DNA from: an uncultured Candidatus Saccharibacteria bacterium
Lineage (GTDB): Bacteria; Patescibacteriota; JAQUNI01
Reading direction: 5' to 3'
NCBI GenBank assembly: GCA_964555185.1
Contig: CAZKRD010000001.1
Coordinates: 303,272 to 367,271 of the forward strand
DNA length: 64,000 bases
Shown here: piece by piece, positions 38,506-52,065 of the stretch
Layout of the letters: every line of letters begins with the position of its first letter
Numbering within the stretch: position 1 is the stretch's first letter
Program-made: the position numbers and the translations under genes
Notes under the pieces: generated by a model
Database searches by the model: none
What the model was told of the DNA's origin: nothing
What the model saw: only the letters and a program-made list of their open reading frames with translations

Positions 38506-38515
38506 CAAAGGTGAT

Positions 38516-38588
38516 GATCAAGTCTTGCTTTTTGGTATTTTAAGAAAAACTAAAACATCAAAATATAAGATTTGATCTCATTTATCCT
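38516..38588 (+). repeat. Island repeat family A, copy 1 (immediately 3' of tRNA-Pro)
   Basis: gatcaagtcttgctttttggtattttaagaaaaactaaaacatcaaaatataagatttgatctcatttatcc. Related copies start at 41545, 45031 and 51906, with a partial copy at 46001. Confidence 0.6.
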
Positions 38589-38637
38589 TTCCTAGACCAT
38601 TGAAAAAAACTTCAAAAAAAAGGTAAATTAAAATAAT

Positions 38638-39324
38638 ATGCCACCATCTGGAAAACACAAAGCCGAAGGCCACAGAAAGCGACTCAGAGAAAGGTTTTTA
38701 CAGGGCGGATTTGATGGTTTTCTTGATTATGAAATAGTAGAGTTGCTTTTAACTTTGGGTACTCCTAGAAAAGACTGTAAACAAATGGCAAAAGAGGCGA
38801 TAAAAAAGTTTGGAGGATTGCGGGCCGTGCTTGATGCTCAGTCTGAAGAATTGCAGCAGATTAAAGGCATCGGCCCTTTTAATGTTTTTGGTATCAAGCT
38901 TTTTCAGGCGGTATCCGAACGTTACGCCAAAGAACAGATACCGAAAAAAATTACACTTAATACGTCAGAAGCAGTAGCTAGTTTTTTACAAAAATCTATT
39001 GGCCGAGAAAAGAAAGAGCACTTTGTTATGTTATCTTTAGACGCGCATAATAATTTGATCAAGATTAGTAATATATCCACTGGTTCGTTGACCGCGAGTA
39101 TTGTCCATCCACGGGAAGTTTTTAAGGAAGCAATTAAAGCTTCTTCCGCGCAAATTATAGTTGCCCATAATCACCCATCAGGAGATACTGAACCTTCTCC
39201 GGAGGATGTCGCGCTTACTAGGCGACTTGAAGAAGCGGCCAAAATATTTGGCATCGGACTTCTTGATCATCTTATTATTACCAAAGATAAATTTTCTAGC
39301 TTAAAAGAACAAAATTTAATGTAA
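38638..39324 (+). CDS. RadC-like JAB/MPN-domain protein
   Basis: 228 aa. The HhH-like N-terminus and C-terminal JAMM-like motif IIVAHNHPSGDTEPSPEDVALTRRL are characteristic of the RadC/UPF0758 family. Confidence 0.7.
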   Translation: MPPSGKHKAEGHRKRLRERFLQGGFDGFLDYEIVELLLTLGTPRKDCKQMAKEAIKKFGGLRAVLDAQSEELQQIKGIGPFNVFGIKLFQAVSERYAKEQIPKKITLNTSEAVASFLQKSIGREKKEHFVMLSLDAHNNLIKISNISTGSLTASIVHPREVFKEAIKASSAQIIVAHNHPSGDTEPSPEDVALTRRLEEAAKIFGIGLLDHLIITKDKFSSLKEQNLM

Positions 39325-39328
39325 ATTT

Positions 39329-39676
39329 ATGTCCGATATAAAAAATCTTACAGAAAAAATTAATAAATTTCGGGATGAGCGAGATTGGAAGCAATTCCAT
39401 AATCCTAAAGATGTTGCACTCTCCCTTGCTTTAGAGGCGGCAGAGGTTATTGAACATTTTCAATGGAAGAATAATCAAGAAGTAGCCAAGTATATTAAGA
39501 GCAATAAAGATGATATAGGAGAAGAGCTAGCAGACGTATTGTATTGGGTTTTACTTATGTCTCACGATCTTGAAATAGATATAAAGGAGGCGCTCGAAAA
39601 AAAGATTGCAAAAAATGAAAAAAAGTATCCCATAGACAAATCAAAGGGCAAGCACAATAAATACAACAAACTTTAA
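39329..39676 (+). CDS. MazG-like nucleotide pyrophosphohydrolase
   Basis: 115 aa. EAAEVIEHFQWK...EELADVLYWVLLMSHDLEIDIKEALEKKIAKNEKKY fits the all-alpha MazG/NTP-PPase fold with the EExxD/E motif. The start is 4 nt after the RadC stop. Confidence 0.7.
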   Translation: MSDIKNLTEKINKFRDERDWKQFHNPKDVALSLALEAAEVIEHFQWKNNQEVAKYIKSNKDDIGEELADVLYWVLLMSHDLEIDIKEALEKKIAKNEKKYPIDKSKGKHNKYNKL

Positions 39677-39679
39677 ATT

Positions 39680-41539
39680 ATGATCCTGTATGAAAATACA
39701 ATAGAGCATTTTAACGAAGATGTAATGCAAAATTGCGTTGCGGATCGTGCGGCTGAAAAATACCGAGCATATTATAATAGGGATCCTGGTAATTCCGAGT
39801 ATCGGTCTTGGAGAAACTCACTTGCCATTCTAAATAATAGTTTTATCTATGCCGGATTAAAAAATAACCATATAATTATAGAATATGAACTTCCTTATTC
39901 ATCACGCAGAATTGATGTTTTGCTTTTTGGAAATGATCCTGATGGAGAAGAAAATATTGTCATGATGGAACTCAAGCAATGGTCGAATGAAAACGTTGAA
40001 GACTCTGCATCAGAAGGTAATGTAATTGTTGATTACGGGAAATTCAAAAAAGAACAAGTGCACCCTGCGTTGCAAGTGCAGGGATATCATTTTGGTTTAA
40101 AAGATTTTCTTGGAATTTTTGAACAAAAAAACGCTCCAGAGCTAAGTTCATGTGCATATGCACATAATTATTCAAAAGAAGATAGCACTGTTCTTTTTTT
40201 ACCTAAATTTTCTAGTACAATCAAGACATTTCCTTTATTTGCGAAGGAAGATGCTGTTGAATTGGGGCGGTATCTTAAAGATCGACTTCAAGGTGGCGGT
40301 GGGAAAATAATCTTTGAGCGTTTTGCAAGAAGCGCAATTAAGCCATCTAAAAGACTTCTTGATCATACGTCAGAGATGATAAATGAACAGCAAATTTTTA
40401 ATTTAATTGATGAGCAAATTACTGCCTATAATGCGATAATGCACAAAGCCAAACAGCTTGCGAAAACAAAGCAGAAAGCTGTAGTCATAGTAAAAGGTGG
40501 TCCAGGTACGGGAAAATCTGTGATAGCATTAGAAGTTATGGGAGAACTTTTACGACAAGGGAAAAGGGTTATGCATGCCACAGGATCATCCGCGTTTACA
40601 AATACATTAAGGAAGATAGTGGGTATGCGAGCAAGAAATCTCTTTAAATTTTTTAATAGCTTTATTGCAACGGAGCCAGATTCTTTTGATGTGCTTATTT
40701 GTGATGAAGCCCATCGTATAAGAGAATCGAGCATGAGTAGATATACTCCAAGGGCTCAAAGAACAAATTTGCCTCAGATAGATGAATTGCTAAGAGTAGC
40801 AAAATTAAATATTTTCTTTTTAGATGAGCATCAAATCGTACGGCCAAGTGAAATTGGCGGCATTGCGATGCTTAAGGAGGCCGTTAAACGTTTTGGTATT
40901 AATGATAAAAATGTAGCTGAATTTGAATTAAAAACACAATTTCGTTGTTCTGGATCAGATGCTTATTTACAATGGCTTGATCATGTTTTAAGGATTCGTG
41001 ATACGGAAATGAGAGAGTTTGATGCAAAAATGGAATTTCGTATTTTCGATAACCCTTCAGATATGATGTCTGAAATTCGAAAGAGGAACAAGGAAACATC
41101 AAACTCAGCTCGCATAGCAGCGGGGTTTTGTTGGCCTTGGAGCAAACCAAACCCGGAAGGTTCATTAGTAAAAGATGTAAAAATTGGAAATTTTGCAATG
41201 CCATGGGAGAAGAAAGATCAATTTTGGAAATGGGCAACAGATGATTCAGGCATGGAACAGGTTGGTACTATATATACGGCTCAGGGATTTGAATTTGATT
41301 ATATTGCTGTAATTTTCGGTAACGATTTAGTTTTTGATCCGGTTGAAAATAAATGGCAGGCAGTGCCGGAGAATTCTCATGATACACAAGTAAAACGCAA
41401 TAACCCAAATCTCACGAATCATTTAAAAAACGTTTATCGCGTGCTTCTTTCTCGGGCCCATAAGGGCGTGTATGTTTATTTTATGGATAAAGATACAGAA
41501 AAATATTTTAAGAGTTATTTACCGGAAATAAAATCATGA
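39680..41539 (+). CDS. DUF2075-type nuclease-helicase (N-terminal PD-(D/E)xK nuclease plus P-loop SF1-like ATPase)
   Basis: 619 aa. N-terminal PD-(D/E)xK-like motif IEYELPYSSRRIDVLLFG...IVMMELKQWS; Walker A KGGPGTGKSVIALEV; DEAH-like ICDEAHRI. The start is 3 nt after the MazG stop, so the three genes look like one operon. Confidence 0.65.
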   Translation: MILYENTIEHFNEDVMQNCVADRAAEKYRAYYNRDPGNSEYRSWRNSLAILNNSFIYAGLKNNHIIIEYELPYSSRRIDVLLFGNDPDGEENIVMMELKQWSNENVEDSASEGNVIVDYGKFKKEQVHPALQVQGYHFGLKDFLGIFEQKNAPELSSCAYAHNYSKEDSTVLFLPKFSSTIKTFPLFAKEDAVELGRYLKDRLQGGGGKIIFERFARSAIKPSKRLLDHTSEMINEQQIFNLIDEQITAYNAIMHKAKQLAKTKQKAVVIVKGGPGTGKSVIALEVMGELLRQGKRVMHATGSSAFTNTLRKIVGMRARNLFKFFNSFIATEPDSFDVLICDEAHRIRESSMSRYTPRAQRTNLPQIDELLRVAKLNIFFLDEHQIVRPSEIGGIAMLKEAVKRFGINDKNVAEFELKTQFRCSGSDAYLQWLDHVLRIRDTEMREFDAKMEFRIFDNPSDMMSEIRKRNKETSNSARIAAGFCWPWSKPNPEGSLVKDVKIGNFAMPWEKKDQFWKWATDDSGMEQVGTIYTAQGFEFDYIAVIFGNDLVFDPVENKWQAVPENSHDTQVKRNNPNLTNHLKNVYRVLLSRAHKGVYVYFMDKDTEKYFKSYLPEIKS

Positions 41540-41544
41540 AAGAG

Positions 41545-41632
41545 AATTGATGGTCAAATTTTACTTTCTGACATTTTAAGAAAGATTAAAACATCAAAAT
41601 ACAAAATTTAAGCCTATTTATCTGGCCCCATT
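41545..41632 (+). repeat. Island repeat family A, copy 2
   Basis: aattgatggtcaaatttt...cattttaagaaagattaaaacatcaaaatacaaaatttaagcctatttatc. It shares the gattgatggtcaa prefix with copy 4 and starts 6 nt after the DUF2075 stop. Confidence 0.55.
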
Positions 41633-41781
41633 CTCTCCCTTTGTCATCTCCGACTTGATCGGAGATCCAGGGTTTTAGAGCAAGAATCCTGGATTCCCGC
41701 TTTCGCGGGAATGACAAGCGTGTCGTGGCTTCACAGGATTCCTTCCAAGTTTCTCCGACTATGGAGTATTTGTACACATAT

Positions 41782-41810
41782 AAAAAAACAGAGTCGACCC
41801 CATTTTGCAC
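41782..41810 (+). repeat. Repeat family C motif AAAAAACAGAGTCGACCCCATTTTGCAC, copy 1
   Basis: Related copies start at 44390, 45004, 47440 and 54951; a degenerate second copy lies at 41820-41845. Confidence 0.55.
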
Positions 41811-41927
41811 TAGCTAGGGAAAAACAGAGCCGGTCCCATTTCATCAATTTGGTGCGGGGGGAGGTGAGATCTAGGGTTGGAATCTCCAAAAATGTTATAA
41901 TAAAGATAAGTTTTTCAATAAATAAGC

Positions 41928-41987: not shown

Positions 41988-41999
41988 AAAAATTTCGTT

Positions 42000-42377
42000 A
42001 TGATACAAATTGATACAATTTATAATCGTTATGGAGAACCGAGATTGCGATTACGCAGCAATGGTCGTTTGGTTGATTTTTCTGGACGAAATATCGGATT
42101 TTTAAGTGGAGATAATCTTTATAATGATGAAGGTCGCCATGTTGGTTGGTATGAAGGAGGTATAATGAGAGATCATGGGGGTTTTTGTACGGGCTTCGGG
42201 GAAAATGTGACTGACCAACTTCATCCCCTGCTTCCTGTGCGACAATTGAAGCCTGTTCCAGCTTTACCCCGATTCGAGCCGTTAAGACCCCCAAAGCGTT
42301 TATCCCCATTAAAGCCTTACAAATCTTTTAGATGGTCAAACTTCGACCCGATAGATTTGTTTTTAATGTATGAATAA
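42000..42377 (+). CDS. Hypothetical protein (internal GR.IGFLSGDNLYNDEGRHVGWYEGG repeat-like segment)
   Basis: 125 aa, no recognisable family. It overlaps the next ORF by 8 nt. Confidence 0.35.
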   Translation: MIQIDTIYNRYGEPRLRLRSNGRLVDFSGRNIGFLSGDNLYNDEGRHVGWYEGGIMRDHGGFCTGFGENVTDQLHPLLPVRQLKPVPALPRFEPLRPPKRLSPLKPYKSFRWSNFDPIDLFLMYE

Positions 42378-42801
42378 TATAAGCAAAAAAGGTGAGGGTA
42401 ATAGAAACCAAATCAGCTCAAAGAGTGCCAAGCCCGAACTATCTTTAGGTTATACACAAAGAGATTTAAAAAACCCTGGTGTTGCAAAGGGAATATTGGC
42501 AGAAAATCAAAGGCTCCAAGGAGAGGCAAATCAACTGAAGAAGTCATTAAGGTTAACACAGGACAGTTTTGAGAAGTTAAGGCAAAAATATCATACCAGA
42601 GATAAAGAAAATGCAGTAATGAAAGAGAAGTACTCACTTCTTTCGAGGTTTGAAATTATAAAGTCACTTTCTTTAATCGGCGTTGGTTCGGCGATTTCAT
42701 TTTTAATAGATAAAAAATATTTAACAGCGGCGGCGACTGGTATTATATCATTCATTCTATTGCTAGTTGTAACACGTAAAGATACTAAGGTAAAAAGATA
42801 A
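42370..42801 (+). CDS. Hypothetical coiled-coil protein with C-terminal TM helix
   Basis: 143 aa; coiled-coil segment then a hydrophobic tail LIGVGSAISFLI...IISFILLLVV. Confidence 0.35.
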   Translation: MNNISKKGEGNRNQISSKSAKPELSLGYTQRDLKNPGVAKGILAENQRLQGEANQLKKSLRLTQDSFEKLRQKYHTRDKENAVMKEKYSLLSRFEIIKSLSLIGVGSAISFLIDKKYLTAAATGIISFILLLVVTRKDTKVKR

Positions 42802-42821
42802 TCTTCTATTGCATTTGAGGG

Positions 42822-42878
42822 GAAATGGGATCAGGTCTTGAATAGTGAATTGTTAAAATCAGAAACGTCCCCGTTTTT
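42822..42878 (+). repeat. MITE-like element family B, copy 2 (forward)
   Basis: ggaaatgggatcaggtcttgaatagtgaattgttaaaatcagaaacgtccccgttttt. Confidence 0.6.
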
Positions 42879-42916
42879 CTTAGCCCTAAAGTTTTAATTG
42901 CGAAATATATTCTCGT

Positions 42917-43390
42917 ATGAAAAAATCAACTATTGATTTATGTGTTTGCATGATACTTTTTAACAAAAAATTTGAATTTTTGCTTGTTAAAAAGTTTCAT
43001 GAAACTGAAAAGATAGGAGGTCTTTGGGTTCTTCCGGGCGGAGGCGGCGGTTTTGCCGATGCCAGAAGTTTTTCAGCTTTGGCAAAGCAAGAGGTGGAGT
43101 ATGATTTGAATGAAAATTATAATAAAAATAAAAAGAAAGGTCAATGGATTAACTTTGAGGTTGAGGAGGGCGCTATTAAAATTTTCAAGACTCAACCTAG
43201 CGAAAAAAAAATTATAATTTATACTTACTGCAACAATTACGAAGGGACTCCCACTCCGAATAATAAGGATATAATAGACTTTCGTTGGTTTCCTATTAAG
43301 AAGATTCGGGAGTTTGGCATGGTTGGGAAAATCGCTTACGGAAATCATTTAGTGATTTATGATTTTTATAGAAAATTTATAGAAATTTAA
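42917..43390 (+). CDS. NUDIX-fold-like protein with degenerate Nudix box (possibly inactive)
   Basis: 157 aa. GGLWVLPGGGGGFADARSFSALAKQEVEYDL resembles the Nudix box GX5EX7REUXEEXGU, but the catalytic E and R are replaced. Confidence 0.35.
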   Translation: MKKSTIDLCVCMILFNKKFEFLLVKKFHETEKIGGLWVLPGGGGGFADARSFSALAKQEVEYDLNENYNKNKKKGQWINFEVEEGAIKIFKTQPSEKKIIIYTYCNNYEGTPTPNNKDIIDFRWFPIKKIREFGMVGKIAYGNHLVIYDFYRKFIEI

Positions 43391-43401
43391 GATGAGAAAT
43401 C

Positions 43402-43436
43402 AAATGGGGACGTTTCTGATTTATTTGGTACAGGTC
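43402..43436 (-). repeat. MITE-like element family B, copy 3 (reverse orientation, partial)
   Basis: aaatggggacgtttctgatttatttggtacaggtc. Confidence 0.4.
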
Positions 43437-43482: not shown

Positions 43483-44247
43483 ATGACCAAGCAACCGGCA
43501 CTGGTGGGGATTGTGCCGAGAAAAAATCTCTGGGATGTGATTTGCGAGAAAAGATGGTATCACATCCCGGTGAAGTCGGCTCCCGACAATGTTTCTCTCG
43601 CGGAATTTATCGCCTTTTATTTTCCTAAAATATTCGGCGAAGAGGAAAGATACAAGGTGAATCATTATGCCCAGGTGCGGGCAGTGGATATTGTTAAGAG
43701 AGTCAAGCTTTTCCCAGGGGAGCCAAAACACAAAGGGGCGCATGAAGATTACTTTCAATTTCATCTTGGGGAGATTAAGAGATTGCCGCATCCCATCCCC
43801 AGTAAGAGATGGAGAAGAATTGTTCATATTCCCACCAGTCGTCAAAAATTATTCAGCGCGGAAGAGATTAATGATCTTTACGACACCAGCCCCTTGGAAG
43901 AAAAAGTGTACCGGGAAATGAAGAGACGGCGCATAGACGCCGAAAGACAGGTGTTTGTCCAAGTCGCAGGCCGGGTGTACTGCCTAGACTTTGGAATCTT
44001 TTGTCGCAATGGCGACATAGATGTTGAATGTGATGGTGAGAAATACCATATTTTACCTGATGCCTTAACCAGGGACAGAGAGCGCAACAATCAATTAACC
44101 AGCTTTGGCTGGCATGTTTTGAGGTTTTCGGGAAAAGAAATCAACTGGACTCTGGCAAATTGCTTCAAAGTTATTGAGAAAACGATTAGTAATCTGGGTG
44201 GACTGAGGCAAAAGCTTGATAAGTCGGTTAGTATGTTGTTAAGTTAA
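43483..44247 (+). CDS. Protein with C-terminal DUF559 (Vsr/PD-(D/E)xK-like endonuclease) domain
   Basis: The C-terminus YCLDFGIFCRNGDIDVECDGEKYHILPDALTRDRERNNQLTSFGWHVLRFSGKEI matches the DUF559 pattern D...E.DG..H...D..R...L...GW.VLRF. The N-terminal ~150 aa are unknown. Confidence 0.55.
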   Translation: MTKQPALVGIVPRKNLWDVICEKRWYHIPVKSAPDNVSLAEFIAFYFPKIFGEEERYKVNHYAQVRAVDIVKRVKLFPGEPKHKGAHEDYFQFHLGEIKRLPHPIPSKRWRRIVHIPTSRQKLFSAEEINDLYDTSPLEEKVYREMKRRRIDAERQVFVQVAGRVYCLDFGIFCRNGDIDVECDGEKYHILPDALTRDRERNNQLTSFGWHVLRFSGKEINWTLANCFKVIEKTISNLGGLRQKLDKSVSMLLS

Positions 44248-44283
44248 AACAATGGGTATATTATAAAAAATTAAGGGAATACG

Positions 44284-44364
44284 GGGGCAGGTTTTGTATT
44301 TTGGAAAAAATGGAGACGTTTCTGATTTATTTTTGCTAAATTCACTATTGTATGACCTGACCCC
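44284..44364 (-). repeat. MITE-like element family B, copy 4 (reverse orientation, full length ~81 bp, TIR GGGGYCAGGT/GACCTGACCCC)
   Basis: gggggcaggttttgtattttggaaaaaatggagacgtttctgatttatttttgctaaattcactattgtatgacctgacccc. Confidence 0.65.
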
Positions 44365-44389
44365 GTTTGTTGACCCCATTTGTATCCAT

Positions 44390-44417
44390 AAAAAAACAGA
44401 CTCGACCTCATTTTCCC
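44390..44417 (+). repeat. Repeat family C, copy 2
   Basis: aaaaaaacagactcgacctcattttccc, 40 nt upstream of the GNAT start. Confidence 0.5.
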
Positions 44418-44456
44418 TATAATTAAAGCAGGTTATTCTTTATCAAAATTGTTTGT

Positions 44457-44969: not shown

Positions 44970-45003
44970 ATATAGTGAGTTGCGGGATGGGATAATTAGA
45001 GTG

Positions 45004-45767: not shown

Positions 45768-45779
45768 TTGAGAGAAATA

Positions 45780-45895: not shown

Positions 45896-46000
45896 AAGTT
45901 ATTGTTTTGGTTTTGTTTTAGAACAAGACATTTTTAGCTTTTATGTTATTATTCTTTTTTCGTTAAAAAGGTTTATTATAAATTATAATAAGAGGATTTA

Positions 46001-46030
46001 GGATCAAGTCTTGCTTTTTCGAATTTTTAG
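46001..46030 (+). repeat. Island repeat family A, partial copy
   Basis: ggatcaagtcttgctttttcgaatttttag, upstream of purD. Confidence 0.45.
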
Positions 46031-46129
46031 ATCGGATTGACAAAGCCACTGCATGGGATGATAATATAGATGAAATGTACATACACAAACAATTGGCCTA
46101 AATAACCGAAATGTTAGAGAGGAGGCAAA

Positions 46130-47401
46130 ATGAGGATTCTAGTGATTGGAGGGGGCGGAAGGGAACACACCTTGGTTTGGAAAATGGCCCAGAGTCCATT
46201 AGTTGATAAGATTTATTGCATTTCGGGCAATGCGGGAATCGCCGCATTGGCAGAGTGTGAGAAAATAGATGTAGATGGTGCGCTGGAGCCCATAGCAGAT
46301 TTTGCGCTGGATAACAGGATAGACCTGACGGTTGTTGGCCCCGAAGATCCGCTTGCAAACGGGATTGTTGACCTCTTTGCCGCTAGTAGGCTGAGAGCTT
46401 TCGGCCCGGACCAGCTAGCAACACAGATCGAGGCAAGTAAAATATTCTCAAAGGAGTTGATGTGGAAGTATGGCATTCCAACCGCCAACGCCGAGATATT
46501 TGACAACCACGAGGAGGCCACCGCATACATTCGTGATGCAGGTGTACCTATAGTGGTGAAGGCAGATGGTTCAGCTAAGGGGAAAGGCGTTATCGTTTGC
46601 CGTGATGAATTGCAGCAGGCTCTGGATGCTGTTAACACGATTATGGTGGAGAAGGCGTTTGGGAATGCTGGCAACAGGATTCTTGTAGAAGAATGTCTGG
46701 AAGGCGAGGAAGCGTCATTCATCGTTTTTACCGACGGTGAGAATATCTTACCCATGTCCTCTTCGCAGGATCACAAGCCCATATATGACGGCGATCGCGG
46801 GCTGAATACCGGAGGAATGGGAGCTTATTCGCCAGCGCCGGTAGTTACGCCAGAAGTATACGACCTTATCATGGAAACCATAATGCTGCCGACCGTAAAA
46901 GGCATGGCTGCTGAAGGGTATCCATACAAAGGTGTGTTGTATGCCGGCTTGATGATAGCCGATGGCAAACCAAAGGTTATAGAATTCAACGCACGGTTTG
47001 GCGATCCTGAAAGCCAGGCAGTACTACCAAGATTGCAAAGTGATATTGTGCCGGTAATGGAGGCCTGTATCGACGGTACACTGGACCAGGCGCAACTGGA
47101 ATGGTCGGACGAGGCGGCCGCATGTGTTGTAATGGCCTCTGGTGGGTACCCTGTAAAATACAAGAAAGGCAAAGTGATAACTGGCCTGGACGTGGCTGGT
47201 GCTATGGAAAACGTAATGGTTTTTCATGCTGGTACCGCGCGACAGGGGGGCAAGATCGTCACTAACGGCGGCAGGGTCCTTGGTGTGACAGCATTGGGTA
47301 AGGATATCGAAGAGGCGGTTATCACTGCTTACGATGCCGTAGGCAGGATATCCTTTGAGGGCGCATACTTCCGAAACGATATTGCCTATCGTGCCCTCTA
47401 A
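46130..47401 (+). CDS. purD: Phosphoribosylamine--glycine ligase (GAR synthetase)
   Basis: 423 aa. N-terminus MRILVIGGGGREHTLVWKMAQS and a central ATP-grasp fold, collinear with PurD over the full length. Strong GGAGG RBS. GC content is visibly higher than the flanking DNA, and long spurious antisense ORFs appear. Confidence 0.85.
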   Translation: MRILVIGGGGREHTLVWKMAQSPLVDKIYCISGNAGIAALAECEKIDVDGALEPIADFALDNRIDLTVVGPEDPLANGIVDLFAASRLRAFGPDQLATQIEASKIFSKELMWKYGIPTANAEIFDNHEEATAYIRDAGVPIVVKADGSAKGKGVIVCRDELQQALDAVNTIMVEKAFGNAGNRILVEECLEGEEASFIVFTDGENILPMSSSQDHKPIYDGDRGLNTGGMGAYSPAPVVTPEVYDLIMETIMLPTVKGMAAEGYPYKGVLYAGLMIADGKPKVIEFNARFGDPESQAVLPRLQSDIVPVMEACIDGTLDQAQLEWSDEAAACVVMASGGYPVKYKKGKVITGLDVAGAMENVMVFHAGTARQGGKIVTNGGRVLGVTALGKDIEEAVITAYDAVGRISFEGAYFRNDIAYRAL

Positions 47402-47439
47402 TTTTTTCATGGGGTCAACTCTCATTTTTCGATTTACTT

Positions 47440-47468
47440 AAAAAATAGAGTCGACCCATTTTTTTTCT
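47440..47468 (+). repeat. Repeat family C, copy 4
   Basis: aaaaaatagagtcgacccatttttttt, 39 nt after the purD stop. Confidence 0.5.
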
Positions 47469-47520
47469 TTCATTTTTTAAGAAGGTGAAGGGCGGATGGA
47501 TCGCTCTTTGGGTGATTTTT

Positions 47521-47529
47521 TGCTATAAT
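47521..47529 (+). promoter_or_regulatory. Extended -10 element TGcTATAAT upstream of recQ
   Basis: A perfect TATAAT with an upstream TG, 31 nt before the ATG at 47560. Confidence 0.35.
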
Positions 47530-47559
47530 CAAAGAATCTCAATCTTTCTTAAAATAAAA

Positions 47560-49737
47560 ATGAAAAAATTACTTAAAGTTCACTTTGGCTATGATCAATT
47601 CCGGCCCCTGCAGGAAGAAATCATTAGTAATGTTCTGGCCCTGAAAGACACTTTTGTCCTGATGCCCACTGGAGGCGGAAAATCTCTCTGCTACCAGCTT
47701 CCTGCAATGAAATTTTCCGGTTTGACTCTGGTGGTTTCCCCGCTTATCTCCCTGATGAAAGATCAGGTGGATTCTTTGAAAGCCAACGGCATTGAGGCGG
47801 AATTTTTGAACTCTTCGCTTCTTCCCCGGGACGCTATGGATATCCGGCAAAAAGTCCAAGCCGGCAAAACTAAGATACTGTATGTCGCGCCGGAGCGATT
47901 GGCTCTTGATTTTTTCCGTAGATTTTTGCATTCCCTCAAGTTAAGCCTTATTGCCATTGATGAAGCCCATTGTATCTCGGAATGGGGACATGATTTCCGC
48001 CCTGAATACCGTAACCTTAAATTTTTCAAAAGAGAGTTTCTCAAGGTTCCTGTTATCGCCCTGACCGCTACGGCTACGCCGAAGGTCCGGGCAGATATTA
48101 TTAAACAACTTTCCTTAAGAAAAGCGAAGCAGTTTGTTTCCAGTTTTGACCGGGAAAATTTGACCTTCTCGGTTCTGCGGAAGAAGAATGCTTTTGAAAA
48201 AGTTATGGCTCTTTTAAAGAGGCACAAAGGCGGATCGGCCATTATCTATTGTTTTTCCCGGCGCGAGACCGAAGAAATTGCCGCCAACCTGAAGATCGAA
48301 GGCATTAAAGCCCTGCCTTATCACGCCGGATTGCCCCGGGAGATCCGCAAGCGCAACCAGGAACAATTCATCAAAGACGAGGCGCGGGTCATTGCCGCGA
48401 CTATTGCCTTTGGCATGGGCATTGACAAGCCTGATGTCCGTCTGATCGTCCATTACACTTTTCCGAAAACTTTGGAAGGATATTACCAGGAAATAGGGCG
48501 CGCAGGCCGCGACGGCCTGCCGGCTGAATGCGCCCTTCTTTATTCGTACGGAGATATCCGCAAGCATGAATTCTTTTTGGGGCAGATGGAAAATACGCAG
48601 GAACAGGAGAATAGCCGCCAAAAACTTAACCAGGTTGTGGAATACTGCCAGGGAAGAGGATGCCGCCGGAAATATCTGCTCCAATATTTCGGAGAGGAGT
48701 ATCCAAGGAAAAACTGCAAGGGTTGCGACAGCTGTCTTCGGCCTAAAATAGAATATGAGGCCACCGAGATTGCCCGGAAGATCCTTTCTTGCATTCTGCG
48801 CACTGAATCCCGGTTCGGTAAAAAATATGTCATTGATCTGCTTCGAGGCAAGGCCACCGCGCGGATAACCGGCAACGGCCACCAGACTCTTTCAGTCTTT
48901 GGGATTGTCCGGGATTTGACCATTGAAGAAATGAGGGAGGTGATCAATGACCTGATTTCTCTCGGCTATCTATCTTCTTCTGAAGGAATGTATCCCACTC
49001 TTTCGGTCACAGCTCACGGCATTCAATTTCTTAAGGAAAAACAGAGCCTTACCCTTTCCCGGATAACGCAGGATCTCCTGGATTATGAAGAGGAAGAATC
49101 AGCCGGAGTGGAAGCGCAGTATGATATTCGGCTCTTTGAGAACTTGCGCGTCCTGCGAAAGCAGATCGCGGATGAGCGGGGAGTGCCGCCTTTTGTTATT
49201 TTCGGCGATGCTGCTCTATATGCAATGGCTCGGTATTTTCCGGTCGATCCAGATAATTTTTTAAGAATTCAGGGAGTGGGAGAAAGAAAGCTGGAAAGTT
49301 TTGGCAATTCTTTTATGGATGTTATTTTAAAATATGTTAAGGAGAACAAGCTTAAGCCGGAAATGGTTCCTGACCGGAGCAGAATTAAACGCAACCGGGC
49401 GCGCAGAAAAGTTAAGGCAGGTTCAACCTATCGGGAAACAAAGGAGCTGATTGATCAAAAGACCTCCCTGCGGGAGGTCGCCAGGGCGAGGGGATTAAAG
49501 CCGGGAACGATCATCAGCCATCTGGAAAAACTGGTTATAGCCCAGGCAAAGATTGATCTTGATTATCTCAAACCGTCCGGTAAAGAATGTCGGGAAATCC
49601 AATCCGCTTTTCAAAAATGCGGATACAAATGGCTTAAGCCTGCTTATGATTTTTTGGATGAGAAATATACCTACGACCAGATCCGCCTGGTCAGAGTGAT
49701 AAGTAGCATCCGGCAATCCCGGAGAGAGGCAGGGTAG
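47560..49737 (+). CDS. recQ: ATP-dependent DNA helicase RecQ (helicase, RQC zinc-binding, winged helix and HRDC-like C-terminus)
   Basis: FGYDQFRPLQEEII, P-loop MPTGGGKSLCYQLPA, DEAH (IDEAHCISEWGHDFRPEY), and a four-cysteine RQC (CRRKYLLQYF...CKGCDSC). The track start at 47485 is GTG, so the ATG at 47560 is used. An extended -10 TGcTATAAT sits at 47521-47529. Confidence 0.85.
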   Translation: MKKLLKVHFGYDQFRPLQEEIISNVLALKDTFVLMPTGGGKSLCYQLPAMKFSGLTLVVSPLISLMKDQVDSLKANGIEAEFLNSSLLPRDAMDIRQKVQAGKTKILYVAPERLALDFFRRFLHSLKLSLIAIDEAHCISEWGHDFRPEYRNLKFFKREFLKVPVIALTATATPKVRADIIKQLSLRKAKQFVSSFDRENLTFSVLRKKNAFEKVMALLKRHKGGSAIIYCFSRRETEEIAANLKIEGIKALPYHAGLPREIRKRNQEQFIKDEARVIAATIAFGMGIDKPDVRLIVHYTFPKTLEGYYQEIGRAGRDGLPAECALLYSYGDIRKHEFFLGQMENTQEQENSRQKLNQVVEYCQGRGCRRKYLLQYFGEEYPRKNCKGCDSCLRPKIEYEATEIARKILSCILRTESRFGKKYVIDLLRGKATARITGNGHQTLSVFGIVRDLTIEEMREVINDLISLGYLSSSEGMYPTLSVTAHGIQFLKEKQSLTLSRITQDLLDYEEEESAGVEAQYDIRLFENLRVLRKQIADERGVPPFVIFGDAALYAMARYFPVDPDNFLRIQGVGERKLESFGNSFMDVILKYVKENKLKPEMVPDRSRIKRNRARRKVKAGSTYRETKELIDQKTSLREVARARGLKPGTIISHLEKLVIAQAKIDLDYLKPSGKECREIQSAFQKCGYKWLKPAYDFLDEKYTYDQIRLVRVISSIRQSRREAG

Positions 49738-50035
49738 GGGGAATAGCAGATTAAAATATTCATAGGATTTTTGGGTTCAGGCCTTGCTGCGCCAAGTAAG
49801 GCGATGATCTAACAGGTGTAAGCCCCCCCCTTTTTTGGACTAGCGGTTTTGGTCCTCCTTTGGAGAATTGAACCAACAAAAAAATCGCTGTCTTGGCGGT
49901 TTTCTGATATAATGAAAATGTAAAAAGTGAGAAATCACTATAATCAGGCCCGAAAGGGCTTAAACTATTAGAAATTAAAAATGTCAAAGGGCAAAACTCG
50001 ACCGTATTGACTTTGGCCCTGTTGATCTTCCAATT

Positions 50036-51331
50036 ATGGAAATTCTATTTTGCGTATTATTATTAATTTCACTGATTTGTCTGGTGATAGGGCTTATAAG
50101 GCCCCGTTATGTTTTGATTTTTTTAGAAGGGACTAAAACGAGAAAAAAGGCGCTTTTGATTTTTGGCATACTTAGCATTATATTTCTTGTTTCATTCAGC
50201 TTGACCATCACTGTGTTCAGTCCATTTAGACAACAGCCTGGAAAGGGAATCTTTCCTGTTGTTGAAAAAGAAGCAGAAGAAGAATCCCCAGAGACTCCTC
50301 AAAAAGAAGGTTTAGAAGAAAAGAAAGTATCAGAAGAGCCAGAAGAGAGTCAGCCGGAACCAAAAGTTTACGCTGTATCCATAGGTGACATTGCCAAGAC
50401 AGAATTATTGCGGCTAACTACGTGGACCGACGGGGCGGTTTCCATGGATGTGCCCGTGAACTGGAATATTTATACCGGGGGTCAATGCGCTACAAAGTCA
50501 ATCTTAGCCAGAGATCCTTCTACTGAATTAAAGCAGGTTTTTTATTTTTCAGAAGCCGGACCGGTTTATACCAGCCAAGAATCAAAACAAAGGGATCAAA
50601 ATTATGTCGCTATGGGCGGTAATAAGCTTTCCTACTTCGAAAGTCCGGTAGTAAATCCGTTGACCGCTGAAAATTATTTAAAGAATTTTGGAGCTTTTGC
50701 TATTACTTCTTTGTTTCAACAAGCATTCCCGGAGGTTCCCGTTATGACTGATATAAAAATAATAAGCAAAAAAGAAATTACTGATAAACCGCATTATGTG
50801 ACTGATGGAAAGTTAATAAGGGCAGAATTCAAGCAAGGCGGTAAGTCAGGGGAAGGATATTTTCATATCATAACCGCGGATCTTGGGATGGGCTTCGGAT
50901 ATGGAATGATGTTTGTTGGAATGACAGCCCCGAAGGGCTTGCTTGATTTGATAACACCTTCATTAAAGAAAAGCTTAGAATCTTACGTAATAAGTCAGGA
51001 ATATGTAAGTGCTTGTTTACAGGCGCAGAATAAGGCAGCAGCCGGGATATTAAAAGCAGGCAGGATATTAAGCCAGAGTTCTGATACTATAATGGAAGTC
51101 TGGGAGAATAAGCTTGAATCAGAGCAAAGGATGTCAGAAAAATATAGTGACGCTATTTTGGGAAGCAGCAGGTTGTATAATCCTCAGACTGATGAGGTTT
51201 ATGTAGTTACCCCCGAATTCTATGATTTTTATCAAATTCATAATACAGAATTTGAGAAGAATTATTTACAAGAAATGCCCAATGATAAATGGGGTCATGC
51301 TCCTCTAAATGGGGCCGAATATATATATTAA
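50036..51331 (+). CDS. Hypothetical membrane-anchored protein (2 N-terminal TM helices, acidic linker, large extracytoplasmic domain)
   Basis: 431 aa with no recognisable family. The N-terminal hydrophobic helices are followed by an E/P-rich linker. Confidence 0.45.
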   Translation: MEILFCVLLLISLICLVIGLIRPRYVLIFLEGTKTRKKALLIFGILSIIFLVSFSLTITVFSPFRQQPGKGIFPVVEKEAEEESPETPQKEGLEEKKVSEEPEESQPEPKVYAVSIGDIAKTELLRLTTWTDGAVSMDVPVNWNIYTGGQCATKSILARDPSTELKQVFYFSEAGPVYTSQESKQRDQNYVAMGGNKLSYFESPVVNPLTAENYLKNFGAFAITSLFQQAFPEVPVMTDIKIISKKEITDKPHYVTDGKLIRAEFKQGGKSGEGYFHIITADLGMGFGYGMMFVGMTAPKGLLDLITPSLKKSLESYVISQEYVSACLQAQNKAAAGILKAGRILSQSSDTIMEVWENKLESEQRMSEKYSDAILGSSRLYNPQTDEVYVVTPEFYDFYQIHNTEFEKNYLQEMPNDKWGHAPLNGAEYIY

Positions 51332-51431
51332 ATGTGAATTATGCTAATTATTTCGCTTGTTGATTTCATAGCCTTTAGTTGCCATCTATGGAAAGGGAAA
51401 TGGGGTCAGGTTTACATTTCTATAAACAATT

Positions 51432-51854
51432 ATGTTTAAACGCAGAAAAAACGCAGAAGCGGCCTCTCGAACGGAATCGGAAGCCGCTAAAACAGCTGAA
51501 GAAAAAGAAAAGCCCAAGAGAAATTATCAGATCACTCTGCATTTTCTGGGTGGAGGTGCGCCCATATCGCCGAGTGGGGCGAGAACAGACCTTAGTGAAC
51601 AAAGCAGAATAGACCTTGCGGTGGCAATGGTGGCAAAGGCAGAAGCAGATGATTATGAGCTGACTGATACGGGGATCAACATTATCTTTCGGGGAATAGA
51701 AAAAGCAACATGGAAGGAAGCCGTTATTTTTGGCAAAGCAAGGGGCGCCAAGATTGAAGACACTTTTTCGCATTCTGTGCGGCTTGACCCTAAGAAAGAA
51801 GAGCAGGGCGTTAAGGCAATACCCTATATTGAAGATGAGCAGGAAGCGGCTTAG
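51432..51854 (+). CDS. Hypothetical protein
   Basis: 140 aa, charged N-terminus. The overlapping ORFs 51379-51612 (+) and 51420-51917 (-) were judged less likely. Confidence 0.35.
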   Translation: MFKRRKNAEAASRTESEAAKTAEEKEKPKRNYQITLHFLGGGAPISPSGARTDLSEQSRIDLAVAMVAKAEADDYELTDTGINIIFRGIEKATWKEAVIFGKARGAKIEDTFSHSVRLDPKKEEQGVKAIPYIEDEQEAA

Positions 51855-51905
51855 GCAAAGCCAGATTTTAGTCGATAAAGGAGGTTGGGGTCGAGTTTTG
51901 GGAGG

Positions 51906-51968
51906 ATTGATGGTCAAGCCTTGCTTTTTGGCATTTCGAAAAAAACTAAAACATCAAAATCAAAGCGC
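51906..51968 (+). repeat. Island repeat family A, copy 4 (candidate distal boundary of the island)
   Basis: gattgatggtcaagccttgctttttggcatttcgaaaaaaactaaaacatcaaaatcaaagcgc. About 44 of 50 positions match copy 1. Confidence 0.55.
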
Positions 51969-52065
51969 TTTTTTTATTTGACGAAAGTCTTTTTTATTTA
52001 TATTATTCAGATAGATGGTTTTCCAAAAATTTAAATAAATACAAAAACAATTTAATCAAAAATTC

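What the first reader, a model, noticed from the sequence alone, without database searches (positions are those of the whole stretch)
38506..51980. A ~13.4-kb accessory island begins directly 3' of tRNA-Pro(CGG): a + strand array of single-gene cassettes separated by three short repeat families, with no integrase in view
About 12 genes lie between the tRNA (38434-38505) and ~51.97 kb, all on the + strand: RadC/JAB, MazG, DUF2075 nuclease-helicase, two small overlapping ORFs, a degenerate NUDIX, a DUF559 endonuclease, GNAT, DedA/TVP38, purD, recQ and two unknowns. They are separated by recurring short elements: family A (~65 bp: GATCAAGTCTTGCTTTTTGG-N-TTTAAGAAAAACTAAAACATCAAAATAYAARATTTGATCYCATTTA) at 38516, 41545, 45031 and 51906, plus a partial copy at 46001; family B (MITE-like, ~60-82 bp) at five sites in both orientations; and family C (AAAAAACAGAGTCGACCCCATTTTGCAC) at five sites. 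The first and last family A copies (38516 and 51906) match at about 44 of 50 positions. That is the geometry expected for attL/attR-like direct repeats of a tRNA-targeted integrative element, or for repeated insertions at one hotspot. A shared core GGATCARGTCTTG occurs in both families A and B. Unlike a classical integron there is no IntI gene, and family B elements occur in both orientations. This looks like an undescribed cassette-accretion architecture in a reduced genome.
Basis: seen in the sequence. Interest (0 to 1): 0.85.

Follow-up and report, generated by a model that had tools for sequence, protein, structure and literature searches.

The report
Integrase-less gene-accretion hotspot beside tRNA-Pro
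In a tiny-genome (CPR/Patescibacteria) bacterium, about 19 kb of repair-, defence- and accessory-type genes has accumulated in layers at one spot that is nearly empty in most relatives. Its spacers are filled with one family of short mobile-looking repeats, but it is not a tRNA-targeted integrative element or an integron.

Summary
All 15 significant repeat copies lie in 38.5-52.0 kb, and none lies in the other 68 kb of contiguous genome I could read.

In 46 diverse CPR genomes alaS is followed after a median of 287 bp by ftsA-like/infA/rpsM. Here the gap is 19,066 bp, so an accessory region is real but larger than reported (38.4-57.4 kb).

It was built in layers:
- tRNA-Pro and a DPBB gene are shared with a 60%-AlaRS relative.
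- RadC-MazG-DUF2075 and purD-to-membrane-protein are shared with an 86% relative.
- Only 41.5-46.0 kb differs between the two close genomes.

The proposed ends (38.5 and 51.97 kb) are not breakpoints against the close relative. The last A copy is missing there. No partial tRNA copy and no recombinase was found.

A, B and C are one superfamily of MITE/REP-like elements built from two related termini. All four gene-content breakpoints lie at one of these elements. RadC-MazG-DUF2075 is a module shared at about 79% nucleotide identity with otherwise unrelated CPR genomes.

Most likely this is an integrase-less insertion hotspot. A site-specific cassette system is not excluded (about 12%).

The parts
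36460..38373 (+). alaS, the conserved left flank of the hotspot
   Evidence: Pfam tRNA-synt_2c. In 46 CPR loci it is followed directly by ftsA-like/p579/infA.
38434..38506 (+). tRNA-Pro(CGG), the left edge of the accessory region
   Evidence: ARAGORN and Rfam, 67 bits. The alaS-tRNA-Pro adjacency is shared with L082, L083 and L002 only.
38509..38587 (+). A1, a family A element and the only A copy that folds as a long hairpin
   Evidence: nhmmer E 4e-21. DNA fold z -2.3. 83% conserved in the relative.
38638..41539 (+). RadC-MazG-DUF2075 (Nhi/AbiO-like helicase) three-gene module with spacers of 3-4 nt; horizontally shared among CPR genomes
   Evidence: Pfam/NCBIfam/PADLOC. 78.6% nucleotide identity to L116 over 38668-41539, and only there. 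Also found in L117, L120 and L121. GC3 0.27-0.33.
41543..41625 (+). A2, a family A element; forms a direct repeat with A1 around the module; absent from the relative, which has a B element here
41640..41782 (+). Hairpin-rich segment; only its 3' part is conserved in the relative
   Evidence: RNA fold z -4.4. Alignment with one compensatory pair.
41780..41841 (+). C1 plus the weaker C1' (Y'-type termini); left breakpoint of the 2.6-kb window-specific segment
41927..41986 (+). B1, a short family B element (X terminus, internal part, Y' terminus)
   Evidence: nhmmer E 1e-15.
42000..42801 (+). Bflower (42000-42377) and an overlapping 2TM SLATT-like ORF (42370-42801); absent from the relative
   Evidence: Pfam PF21784 at 4.5e-25, SLATT_4 weak. 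PADLOC 2TM effector weak. No tblastn match in the relative. GC3 0.30.
42820..42880 (+). B2, a family B element
   Evidence: nhmmer E 9e-18.
42917..43390 (+). NUDIX hydrolase gene; absent from the relative; flanked by inverted Y-type arms
   Evidence: Pfam. Arms at 42856-42877 and 43401-43425. GC3 0.32.
43401..43425 (-). Solo Y-type terminus (half of B)
43483..44247 (+). DUF559/MTES_1575 endonuclease-fold gene; absent from the relative
   Evidence: Pfam. tblastn.
44283..44364 (-). Long B element, 82 bp, with 14-bp terminal inverted repeats GGGGKCAGGTYTTG
44388..44420 (+). C2; right breakpoint of the 2.6-kb window-specific segment
44457..44969 (+). GNAT acetyltransferase gene; flanked by direct C copies in both genomes
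   Evidence: Pfam. Relative L082 15412-15921, 88%. C copies.
45000..45091 (+). C3 fused to the 3' part of an A element; the relative diverges right after C3
45099..45767 (+). VTT/DedA membrane protein gene; absent from the relative
   Evidence: Pfam. tblastn.
45780..45861 (-). Long B element, 82 bp, followed by CTGACCCC repeats up to about 45895
45993..46031 (+). 5' part of an A element; homology with the relative resumes at 46024
46130..49737 (+). purD and recQ; shared with the relative; normal GC3
   Evidence: Pfam. L084 90-94%. GC3 0.51-0.52.
47409..47467 (.). Complete small palindromic element (Y, loop, Y') followed by a T run; terminator-like
   Evidence: DNA fold z -3.8. 91% conserved in the relative.
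50036..51854 (+). A 431-aa membrane-anchored protein of an uncharacterised family, and a 140-aa unknown; both shared with the relative
51402..51415 (+). X-type terminus in a spacer that cannot be aligned with the relative; the relative carries the element in the opposite orientation
51887..51983 (+). X-like core plus A4, the last A copy; about 75 bp here is replaced by unrelated sequence in the relative
52066..57162 (.). Rest of the inserted region: a 541-aa membrane protein, a 185-aa unknown, NUDIX, DPBB (- strand, 54987-55556), Band_7 and a 174-aa unknown. No A/B/C elements.
   Evidence: None of these genes lies between alaS and ftsA-like/infA in the other CPR loci, except DPBB in L002.
57440..62945 (+). 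ftsA-like, p579, infA, rpsM, rpsK and rpsD; the conserved right flank of the hotspot
   Evidence: Pfam. Synteny with alaS in 46 loci.

Best explanation
The stretch from tRNA-Pro(CGG) to the ftsA-like gene (38.4-57.4 kb) is an integrase-less flexible region. It is an insertion hotspot wedged into the deeply conserved CPR junction alaS | ftsA-like-p579-infA-rpsM-rpsK-rpsD.

It grew in layers through horizontal acquisition of small gene modules:
- The oldest layer is tRNA-Pro and DPBB.
- Next came RadC-MazG-DUF2075 and the run from purD to the membrane protein.
- The youngest layer is Bflower-2TM, NUDIX, DUF559 and DedA.

The region is still turning over in a 4.5-kb core (41.5-46.0 kb).

Families A, B and C are not att sites. 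They are one superfamily of short MITE/REP-like elements built from two related termini:
- X: GGGGTCAGGTYTTG. A carries a variant, ATGATCAAGTCTTG.
- Y: AAATGGGGACGTTTCTGA. C is a solo Y'-type copy.

These elements occupy every spacer of at least 50 bp between 38.5 and 52.0 kb. They are themselves gained, lost, replaced or inverted between ~89%-identical genomes.

What is shown:
- the hotspot and its layering;
- the horizontal sharing of the RadC-MazG-DUF2075 block;
- the unity of the repeat families and their restriction to this region in 81 kb;
- the coincidence of breakpoints with elements.

What is inferred: gene turnover proceeds by host recombination. This could be deletion or replacement between the dispersed short repeats, or capture of incoming DNA through flanking homology. 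I infer that it does not use an island-encoded recombinase, and that the elements act as recombination substrates or as their scars.
For: Hotspot:
- The gap from alaS to the next conserved gene has a median of 287 bp (range 27-4801) in 46 CPR loci. It is 19,066 bp in the window.
- L002 is an intermediate state at 4.8 kb, with tRNA-Pro, DPBB and different small genes.
- L078 has an independent 4.5-kb insertion at the same junction.

Layering:
- The relative's two contigs are collinear with window 25694-41547 and 46024-64000. They differ only in between.

Horizontal origin:
- GC3 z-scores run from -2.9 to -4.3 for RadC through NUDIX.
- The RadC-MazG-DUF2075 block is 78.6% identical at nucleotide level to L116, and only over the block.
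- More than 100 DUF2075 homologues reach 73-84% amino-acid identity in diverse CPR genomes. The next-best AlaRS matches after the 86% relative are 66% and 61%.

Repeats:
- The families share termini. One Y' consensus catches both the B ends and the C copies: 9 of 11 hits are in the island, against 0.85 expected from shuffles.
- All 15 copies lie in 13.5 kb of the 81.4 kb examined.
- Breakpoints fall at A2/B (41547), C1|C2 (41806|44417), C3 (45029) and A5'/B (46024).
- Elements are replaced or inverted at otherwise collinear spacers.
- Y-type arms occur as small palindromic elements in unrelated metagenome contigs with GC from 0.31 to 0.66, mostly in intergenic positions.

No island recombinase and no att hallmark:
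-.
Against: - Only 81 kb of the 707-kb scaffold could be examined. Other clusters of the repeats, or a recombinase encoded elsewhere, cannot be excluded.
- Elements cover roughly half of the spacer sequence in 41.5-46.1 kb. Four of four breakpoints falling at elements is therefore only weakly significant (roughly p = 0.07 on my rough estimate).
- No target-site duplications and no clean empty or filled sites were seen. Differences look like replacements.
- All A and C copies share one orientation, which is unusual for ordinary MITEs.
- Direct repeats bracket three units: A1/A2 around the trio, C1/C2 around the 2.6-kb segment and C2/C3 around GNAT. That geometry also fits site-specific insertion.
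- There is only one close relative, and its assembly breaks inside the variable zone.
Confidence: 0.6

Rival explanations
1. A site-specific cassette system. On this reading the X/Y elements, especially the 22-bp imperfect palindrome C and the A element, are recombination sites for a recombinase encoded elsewhere. The analogy is with integron attC/CALIN arrays or Xer-dependent pdif modules. Units such as GNAT, the 2.6-kb segment and the RadC-MazG-DUF2075 block would enter and leave as circles.
For: - Direct repeats bracket three units: A1/A2, C1/C2 and C2/C3.
- All A and C copies share one orientation.
- The C1|C2 breakpoint falls in register.
- DedA is flanked by the 3' part of an A element on its left and the 5' part on its right. 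That is the permutation expected if a circle carrying an intact A site had been opened.
- L095 and the window's NUDIX gene are each flanked by inverted Y arms.
- One Y-motif locus lies next to a serine resolvase.
Against: - No recombinase was found in 81 kb.
- Only A1 folds into a hairpin. The other A copies and all B copies do not.
- I saw no RYYYAAC/GTTRRRY boxes when reading the A copies.
- B elements occur in both orientations.
- The junction in the relative is not a clean hybrid site. It keeps C1 plus an extra right half.
- The RadC-MazG-DUF2075 block has no A/B/C elements around it in L116, L117, L120 or L121.
- Differences at 51.4 and 51.9 kb are replacements or inversions, not excisions.
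Confidence: 0.12
2. The repeats are cis-regulatory modules: shared promoter, operator or terminator pieces of co-regulated repair and defence genes. They would coincide with breakpoints only because whole-gene indels must break in spacers.
For: - A and C copies are all co-oriented with the genes and lie shortly upstream of start codons.
- C is a 22-bp imperfect palindrome, an operator-like shape.
- The purD-recQ palindrome plus T run looks like a terminator and is 91% conserved.
- The + orientation B copies carry TGTTAAAAT, which reads as an extended -10 box.
- Many of the genes concern DNA repair or nucleotide sanitation: RadC, MazG, NUDIX, DUF559 and RecQ. One Y pair in L093 sits between uvrB and uvrA.
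- Other local spacer duplications exist in this genome, for example 31002/34188.
Against: - Elements are not kept at orthologous sites. A2 and A4 are absent from the relative, and the element at 51.4 kb is inverted.
- B occurs in both orientations.
- Genes next to the Y motif in other metagenome loci share no function.
- The promoter/terminator scan is not enriched for promoters and places the strong -35/-10 pairs outside the elements.
- No regulator gene is present in the region.
Confidence: 0.15
3. One reading: a single tRNA-targeted integrative element spanning 38.5-51.97 kb, with A1 and A4 as attL/attR.
For: - It starts right after a tRNA.
- A1 and A4 match at 43 of 50 positions.
- The genes next to the tRNA have low GC3.
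Against: - No integrase.
- The repeat does not overlap the tRNA, and no partial tRNA copy exists.
- Additional A copies lie inside the region.
- The relative lacks A4 but keeps the genes on both sides in the same order.
- Composition is heterogeneous. purD and recQ have normal GC3.
- The deep-synteny right edge is at 57.4 kb.
Confidence: 0.03
4. Passive hitch-hiking. On this reading the elements are ordinary spacer sequences of donor genomes that arrived together with the acquired cassettes and play no role here.
For: - The elements are restricted to the acquired region.
- Related elements sit beside ordinary genes in other CPR-like contigs, L090 and L095. There they are more conserved than the genes.
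Against: - Elements also flank genes with native-like GC3: purD, recQ and unk140.
- A1 and A2 did not travel with the RadC-MazG-DUF2075 block in other genomes.
- Elements are replaced or inverted between close relatives at collinear sites.
Confidence: 0.1

Closest known systems
Core-gene-flanked flexible islands or defence hotspots, such as cDHS1/cDHS2 of Pseudomonas aeruginosa (PMC10250203, abstract read), and the Neisseria 'minimal mobile elements' (from my own knowledge)
   Same: - A fixed chromosomal slot lies between conserved core genes.
- Its content differs between relatives and is rich in nuclease, helicase and defence-type genes.
- Mobility genes need not be present in the slot.
   Different: - The host is a ~0.7-Mb CPR genome.
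- The slot sits in the alaS | infA-ribosomal protein junction and starts at a tRNA.
- Its spacers carry a region-restricted repeat superfamily.
- It also holds non-defence genes such as purD, DedA and membrane proteins.
tRNA-seeded genomic islands built by successive integrations, such as the Prochlorococcus tycheposons (10.1101/2020.12.28.424599)
   Same: - A streamlined genome.
- An island next to a tRNA.
- Layered growth, with newer material near older material.
   Different: Tycheposon islands are defined by site-specific integrases and by partial tRNA copies (att remnants) scattered through the island. Both were looked for here and not found (7, 8, 31-33).
MITEs and modular intergenic repeats: REP/BIME, Neisseria Correia elements and pneumococcal BOX elements (from my own knowledge)
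   Same: - The units are short (25-82 bp) and non-coding.
- They have terminal inverted repeats or palindromic arms, a modular build with shared ends, and solo termini.
- Their presence varies between close relatives.
- They are confined to spacers.
   Different: - No target-site duplications were seen and no parent transposase is identified.
- Copies cluster in one 13.5-kb region instead of being dispersed, at least in the 81 kb seen.
- A and C copies are all in one orientation.
Integron cassette arrays and CALINs, which are attC clusters lacking an integrase (from my own knowledge)
   Same: - Co-oriented small genes are separated by recurring 60-80-bp repeats.
- No integrase lies nearby.
   Different: - The repeats lack the attC hairpin and the R/L boxes.
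- B elements occur in both orientations.
- Several units contain more than one gene.
- Strong promoter-like -35/-10 pairs lie ahead of purD and the membrane protein inside the region.
Acinetobacter pdif modules, which are genes bracketed by inverted Xer sites (from my own knowledge)
   Same: - Single genes (NUDIX here, Vut_1 in L095) are bracketed by inverted copies of a ~21-bp motif.
- The recombinase would be encoded elsewhere.
   Different: The motif has no 11-6-11 Xer-site layout. The bracketing is equally well explained by one palindromic element sitting in each spacer.

Membership tests
tRNA-targeted integrative element (genomic island, ICE/IME or tycheposon) | A site-specific integrase (tyrosine or serine recombinase) at one end | tested here: not met
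   No recombinase domain in any ORF of the window (Pfam). The precomputed Pfam lists for the two extensions show none either.
tRNA-targeted integrative element (genomic island, ICE/IME or tycheposon) | Flanking direct repeats that include the 3' part of the tRNA (attL/attR), or partial tRNA copies within the island | tested here: not met
   The longest match to the tRNA elsewhere in the window is 12 nt, inside recQ. The A repeat starts 6 nt after the tRNA end.
tRNA-targeted integrative element (genomic island, ICE/IME or tycheposon) | The whole element is present or absent between relatives, with breakpoints at the att repeats | tested here: not met
   The relative is collinear across both 38.5 and 51.97 kb and lacks the right-hand A copy.
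Integron / CALIN | An IntI integrase with attI and Pc | tested here: not met
   No tyrosine recombinase in 81 kb. A CALIN would not require one.
Integron / CALIN | attC sites: imperfect palindromes of 57-141 nt with R''/L''-L'/R' boxes (RYYYAAC ... GTTRRRY), all in one orientation | tested here: not met
   Only A1 folds (z -2.3). The other A copies have z from -1.8 to +1.2 and B copies z from -0.2 to +0.7. I saw no GTTRRRY ends when reading the copies. B occurs in both orientations. No attC covariance model was available to run.
MITE / REP-like intergenic repeat | A short non-coding unit with terminal inverted repeats or palindromic arms, present in several copies | tested here: met
   82-bp B units with 14-bp terminal inverted repeats. 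A has related ends. There is a Y-loop-Y' palindrome at 47409-47467.
MITE / REP-like intergenic repeat | Insertion polymorphism between close relatives | tested here: met
   A2 and A4 are absent from the relative. B elements sit at other sites. The element at 51.4 kb is in the opposite orientation.
MITE / REP-like intergenic repeat | Target-site duplications and a cognate transposase (or RAYT) in the genome | tested here: inconclusive
   I saw no target-site duplications at the B3 and B4 flanks. No transposase was found in 81 kb. The rest of the genome could not be searched. The relative's contig ends in an unidentified ORF right after a C copy.
MITE / REP-like intergenic repeat | Dispersal over the genome | not testable with these tools
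   Only 81.4 kb of the 707-kb scaffold could be read. Within it, all copies are clustered.
Flexible genomic island / insertion hotspot between core genes | Conserved flanking genes with variable content between relatives at several depths | tested here: met
Flexible genomic island / insertion hotspot between core genes | Signs of foreign origin in the content | tested here: met
   GC3 z from -2.9 to -4.3 for six genes. The RadC-MazG-DUF2075 block is 78.6% identical at nucleotide level in an otherwise unrelated genome.

The most novel reading that the evidence does not exclude
The X/Y-terminus elements would be the recombination sites of a previously undescribed cassette-exchange system in CPR bacteria that depends on a recombinase encoded elsewhere. 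The candidates are the A element and the 22-bp palindrome C (AAAAYAGAGTC|GACCCCATTTT). Functionally the system would resemble integrons or pdif modules, but with unrelated sites. It would assemble repair and defence gene arrays downstream of the widely shared RadC-MazG-DUF2075 anchor.
Probability: 0.12. Interest if true: 0.8.

Novelty: new member of a known kind. Interest (0 to 1): 0.42.

Why it matters
CPR/Patescibacteria have very small genomes, and little is known about how they gain and lose genes.

- This locus shows a concrete route. One deeply conserved junction (alaS | infA-ribosomal genes) has been opened repeatedly, and here it holds 19 kb of layered acquisitions without any recombinase in view.
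- It shows that a RadC-MazG-DUF2075 (Nhi-like) block is exchanged among distant CPR lineages. In several genomes that block is followed by a different set of nuclease or defence genes each time. This gives a practical anchor for finding CPR defence and repair islands.
- The region-restricted repeat superfamily that sits at every breakpoint is a testable candidate for the recombination substrate.

Tried and rejected
- Rfam at gathering and at E-value thresholds, on the window and on seven motif-bearing loci. It found only the tRNA and unrelated known RNAs.
- Promoter/terminator scan. No enrichment tied to the elements.
- Single-strand folding of every element. Only A1 and the purD-recQ palindrome are structured.
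- Metagenome scan with the B right end. The close relative's metagenome is not in that collection. The 27 hits share only the ~21-30-nt Y arm.
- Genes neighbouring the Y motif show no common function.
- Viral-contig scans for the A, Y' and C patterns found nothing relevant.
- Literature string search for the motifs, and a search for RadC+MazG+DUF2075, returned no papers.
- A degenerate half-site scan (AAAWRGRGNY) was too unspecific to be useful.
- The 15-aa ORF start at the end of the relative's contig, which might belong to an IS element, was searched for in all held loci and not found elsewhere.
- unk431 was checked as a possible hidden recombinase. It has N-terminal membrane helices, no PDB sequence match, and belongs to an uncharacterised family.
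- One attempt to extend the genome leftwards failed because the called gene start differs from my ORF.
- Resemblance of the X terminus to Tn3-family ends (GGGGTC...) was considered from memory. I dropped it because only 8 of 14 positions match.

Full report
**1. What is in the sequence**

ARAGORN and Rfam place tRNA-Pro(CGG) at 38434-38506 on the + strand.

| Coordinates | Gene |
|---|---|
| 38638-39324 | RadC. NCBIfam gives it 228 bits, above the cutoff for the canonical full-length family. |
| 39329-39676 | MazG-like |
| 39680-41539 | DUF2075/SLFN-g3 helicase. PADLOC matches PDC-S41, Nhi and AbiO. |
| 42000-42801 | Overlapping Bflower + 2TM pair |
| 42917-43390 | NUDIX |
| 43483-44247 | DUF559/MTES_1575 |
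| 44457-44969 | GNAT |
| 45099-45767 | VTT/DedA |
| 46130-47401 | purD |
| 47485-49737 | recQ |
| 50036-51331, 51432-51854 | Two unknowns |

The 431-aa unknown has N-terminal membrane helices and belongs to an uncharacterised family. It does not look like a recombinase.

Having all genes on the + strand is not a property of the island. 53 of 58 ORFs in the whole window are on that strand, and GC skew is positive throughout. No recombinase or transposase domain occurs in any window ORF.

**2. The repeats are real, non-random and local**

The core GGGGTCAGGTCTTG with up to 3 mismatches gives 18 hits against 2.98 expected from shuffles. All hits with 2 or fewer mismatches lie in 41934-49786.

I joined the window to two extensions of the same scaffold, ENA ERZ23486238, 706,972 bp. 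This gave 81.4 kb of contiguous genome. All 15 significant copies fall in 38509-51983, and none falls in the other 68 kb. Every one of the 11 spacers of at least 50 bp in that interval carries an element.

None occurs in 1.3 Mb of other CPR/DPANN alaS loci.

**3. The three families are one superfamily**

- The long form of B is an 82-bp unit with 14-bp terminal inverted repeats, GGGGKCAGGTYTTG (44283-44364 and 45780-45861). It holds an internal arm, AAATGGRGACGTTTCTGATTT.
- A begins with a variant of the same terminus (ATGATCAAGTCTTG) and ends with its inverted copy (AAGATTTGATC).
- C (AAAAAACAGAGTCGACCCCATTTT) matches the B right end (AAAAATCAGAAACGTCCCCATTTT) at 20 of 24 positions by my alignment.
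- A single consensus with up to 6 mismatches catches both the B ends and the C copies. 9 of 11 hits lie in the island, and shuffles give 0.85.
- The purD-recQ spacer holds a complete small palindrome made of two such arms plus a T run. Its fold z-score is -3.8, and it is 91% conserved in the relative.

Apart from that palindrome and A1 (z -2.3), no element folds better than shuffled sequence. Rfam finds nothing.

All A and C copies are in the + orientation. B occurs in both orientations.

**4. The closest relative**

A protein search found an AlaRS that is 86% identical, in JGI metagenome 3300033148. Two contigs from that metagenome cover the region.

- L082 is collinear with window 25694-41547 at about 89-92% nucleotide identity. 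This stretch holds alaS, tRNA-Pro, A1, RadC, MazG and DUF2075.
- L082 then has a B element where the window has A2. It matches 41674-41806 and jumps to 44417-45029, which holds GNAT.
- The 2.6-kb segment with Bflower, 2TM, NUDIX and DUF559 is therefore absent from the relative. The junction lies in C copies that flank the segment as direct repeats in the window.
- After GNAT and a C copy, L082 diverges and its contig ends.
- L084 carries a 1515-aa nucleotidyltransferase, an A copy, two small ORFs and a B copy. It is then collinear with window 46024-64000.

So 38.5 kb and 51.97 kb are not breakpoints. The variable zone is 41548-46023, and all four of its breakpoints lie in or at an element.

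The elements themselves also turn over:

- The A copy at 51.9 kb is replaced in the relative by about 76 unrelated bases, although the flanking genes are kept.
- The unk431-unk140 spacer cannot be aligned between the genomes and carries the element in opposite orientations.

Because elements fill about half of the spacer sequence in this zone, the breakpoint coincidence alone is only weakly significant (my rough estimate is p = 0.07).

**5. Deep synteny shows a larger, layered hotspot**

I compared all window proteins with 80 alaS loci from GTDB species representatives.

- In 46 loci, diverse CPR genomes with AlaRS 50-60% identical, alaS is followed on the same strand by homologues of window genes 57440 (ftsA-like), 58851 or 60712 (infA), and then by rpsM, rpsK and rpsD.
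- The median gap is 287 bp (range 27-4801). In the window the gap is 19,066 bp.
- L002 (Doudnabacteria, AlaRS 60%) is an intermediate state. It reads alaS, tRNA-Pro(CGG), an ACT-domain gene, a nitroreductase, three unknowns, a - strand DPBB gene homologous to window 54987-55556, then ftsA-like.
- L083 (AlaRS 66%) has alaS and tRNA-Pro followed by unrelated genes.
- L078 (Falkowbacteria) has an independent 4.5-kb insertion of small + strand accessory genes at the same junction.

The accessory region is therefore 38.4-57.4 kb. It was assembled in at least three layers.

**6. Foreign origin of part of the content**

GC3 values for the genes next to the tRNA are RadC 0.32, MazG 0.33, DUF2075 0.27, Bflower 0.30, 2TM 0.30 and NUDIX 0.32. 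The mean outside the island is 0.455 with sd 0.044, so these give z from -2.9 to -4.3. unk431 is 0.35. The other island genes, including purD and recQ, are normal.

The DUF2075 protein has more than 100 homologues at 73-84% identity in diverse CPR genomes. The next-best AlaRS matches after the close relative are 66% and 61%.

At nucleotide level, window 38668-41539 is 78.6% identical to L116. That similarity stops at the ends of the block.

The three genes occur together in L116, L120 and L121, and in the order MazG-RadC-DUF2075 in L117 and L119. In each case different nuclease or defence-type genes follow:

- MGMT, MTES_1575, SNase, UDG, NUDIX and PDDEXK in L116;
- SduA_C, PDDEXK/Cas4 and UDG in L121;
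- a 948-aa SMC_N/AAA_21 protein in L117.

None of these loci carries A, B or C. The repeats are therefore not the vehicle that moved the block between those genomes.

**7. The elements outside this lineage**

A metagenome scan with the B right end returned 27 loci with GC from 0.31 to 0.66, about 19 of them with the motif in an intergenic position.

- Several loci carry the inverted pair AAATGGGGACGTTTCTGA, 25-50 nt, TCAGAAACGTCCCCATTT. This has the look of a small palindromic mobile element.
- Neighbouring genes share no function.
- In the CPR-like contig L095, the two arms flank a single Vut_1 transporter gene, and C-like motifs occupy three spacers.
- Between L095 and L090, only the elements align at nucleotide level.
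- In the window, NUDIX is flanked in the same way. This is what one palindromic element per spacer would produce, so it does not by itself show cassette mobility.

**8. Tests of the named models**

- tRNA-targeted integrative element: no integrase, no partial tRNA copy (the longest match is 12 nt), and no presence/absence at the proposed ends. Rejected. These are the hallmarks listed for tycheposon islands (10.1101/2020.12.28.424599).
- Integron or CALIN: no IntI, no attC-like fold or boxes, and mixed orientation of B. Not met, although no attC model could be run.
- MITE/REP-like repeats: unit structure and insertion polymorphism are met. Target-site duplications and a transposase were not found. 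Genome-wide dispersal is untestable here.
- Core-flanked flexible island or hotspot (compare PMC10250203): met.

**9. Conclusion**

The attL/attR geometry and the claim of a new architecture are not supported. The most likely mechanism is recombination-driven gain, loss and replacement of small modules at a permissive junction, with a local superfamily of MITE/REP-like elements serving as substrates or scars (confidence 0.6).

The alternatives are a site-specific cassette system with an unseen recombinase (0.12), a regulatory role for the repeats (0.15) and passive hitch-hiking of donor spacers (0.10). Reading the remaining 626 kb of the scaffold and the raw reads would decide between them.

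Noticed in passing
window 38668-41539; L116 6990-9860; L117 6840-9863; L120 100-3093; L121 6238-9162: RadC-MazG-DUF2075 travels as a block among distant CPR genomes, at about 79% nucleotide identity and 80-82% amino-acid identity. In each genome a different set of nuclease or defence-type genes follows it. AbiEii and PIF1 lie upstream in two genomes. It may be an anchor for CPR defence and repair islands.
   Followed up: partly
L091 ~2570-2670; L098 2687-2762; L101 3791-3876 (same in L109 and L112); L103 705-754; L093 ~3775-3830: A small palindromic element, AAATGGGGACGTTTCTGA, 25-50 nt, TCAGAAACGTCCCCATTT, occurs in intergenic positions. The contigs are unrelated metagenome contigs with GC from 0.39 to 0.66. 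There is no Rfam match and no shared neighbouring gene.
   Followed up: partly
L095 4505-4536 and 5322-5353; C-like motifs at 427, 2634 and 4538: In another CPR-like contig, inverted Y-type arms flank a single Vut_1 transporter gene, and C-like motifs sit in three spacers. Between L095 and L090, only these elements align at nucleotide level.
   Followed up: partly
window 41640-41782: A hairpin-rich segment with a three-hairpin junction (RNA fold z -4.4) lies between A2 and C1. Only its 3' hairpins are kept in the relative, with one compensatory pair. There is no Rfam match.
   Followed up: partly
window 20357-20433 and 57241-57317: A different G+C-rich palindromic repeat, centred on GAGCTC, is 77 nt long and 90% complementary. 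It is present once upstream of secA and once, inverted, just upstream of ftsA-like at the right edge of the inserted region.
   Followed up: no
window 31002-31171 and 34188-34317; 34464-34934: CCAAT/ATTGG-rich direct repeats lie on both sides of the ClpB-like gene. The downstream copy and the adjacent 156-aa zinc-ribbon ORF are absent from the close relative. This is a second repeat-associated single-gene indel, outside the island.
   Followed up: partly
window 54961-55526: The only clear - strand gene (DPBB/lytic transglycosylase-like, 54987-55556) is missing from the 86% relative but present in the 60% relative L002. This implies loss in the close relative.
   Followed up: partly
window 49072-49401 (recQ): The relative has a ~330-bp deletion inside recQ. 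It splits the gene into 522-aa and 66-aa ORFs and removes the HRDC region.
   Followed up: no
window 37096-37216 (alaS): AlaRS here is 637 aa against 606 aa in the close relative. About 120 bp in the window has no counterpart in the relative's gene.
   Followed up: no
window 49738-50035: The 298-bp recQ-unk431 spacer is 88% conserved with almost no indels. It contains hairpins and a terminator-like stem, so it may be a leader or a small RNA.
   Followed up: no
window 42000-42801: A Bflower (PF21784) gene overlaps by 8 nt a two-transmembrane ORF with weak SLATT_4 / PADLOC 2TM-effector similarity. It looks like a small conflict-system pair, has low GC3, and is absent from the relative.
   Followed up: partly
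L115 1-1175 (source genome, left of the window): A 1104-aa ATP synthase alpha/beta-family subunit carries intein and LAGLIDADG domains, according to the precomputed Pfam list.
   Followed up: no
L082 16163-16206: The relative's contig ends 44 nt into an ORF (MSKTIKEERLRWVLP...) that starts shortly after a C copy. It may be a repeated or IS-like gene that broke the assembly.
   Followed up: partly
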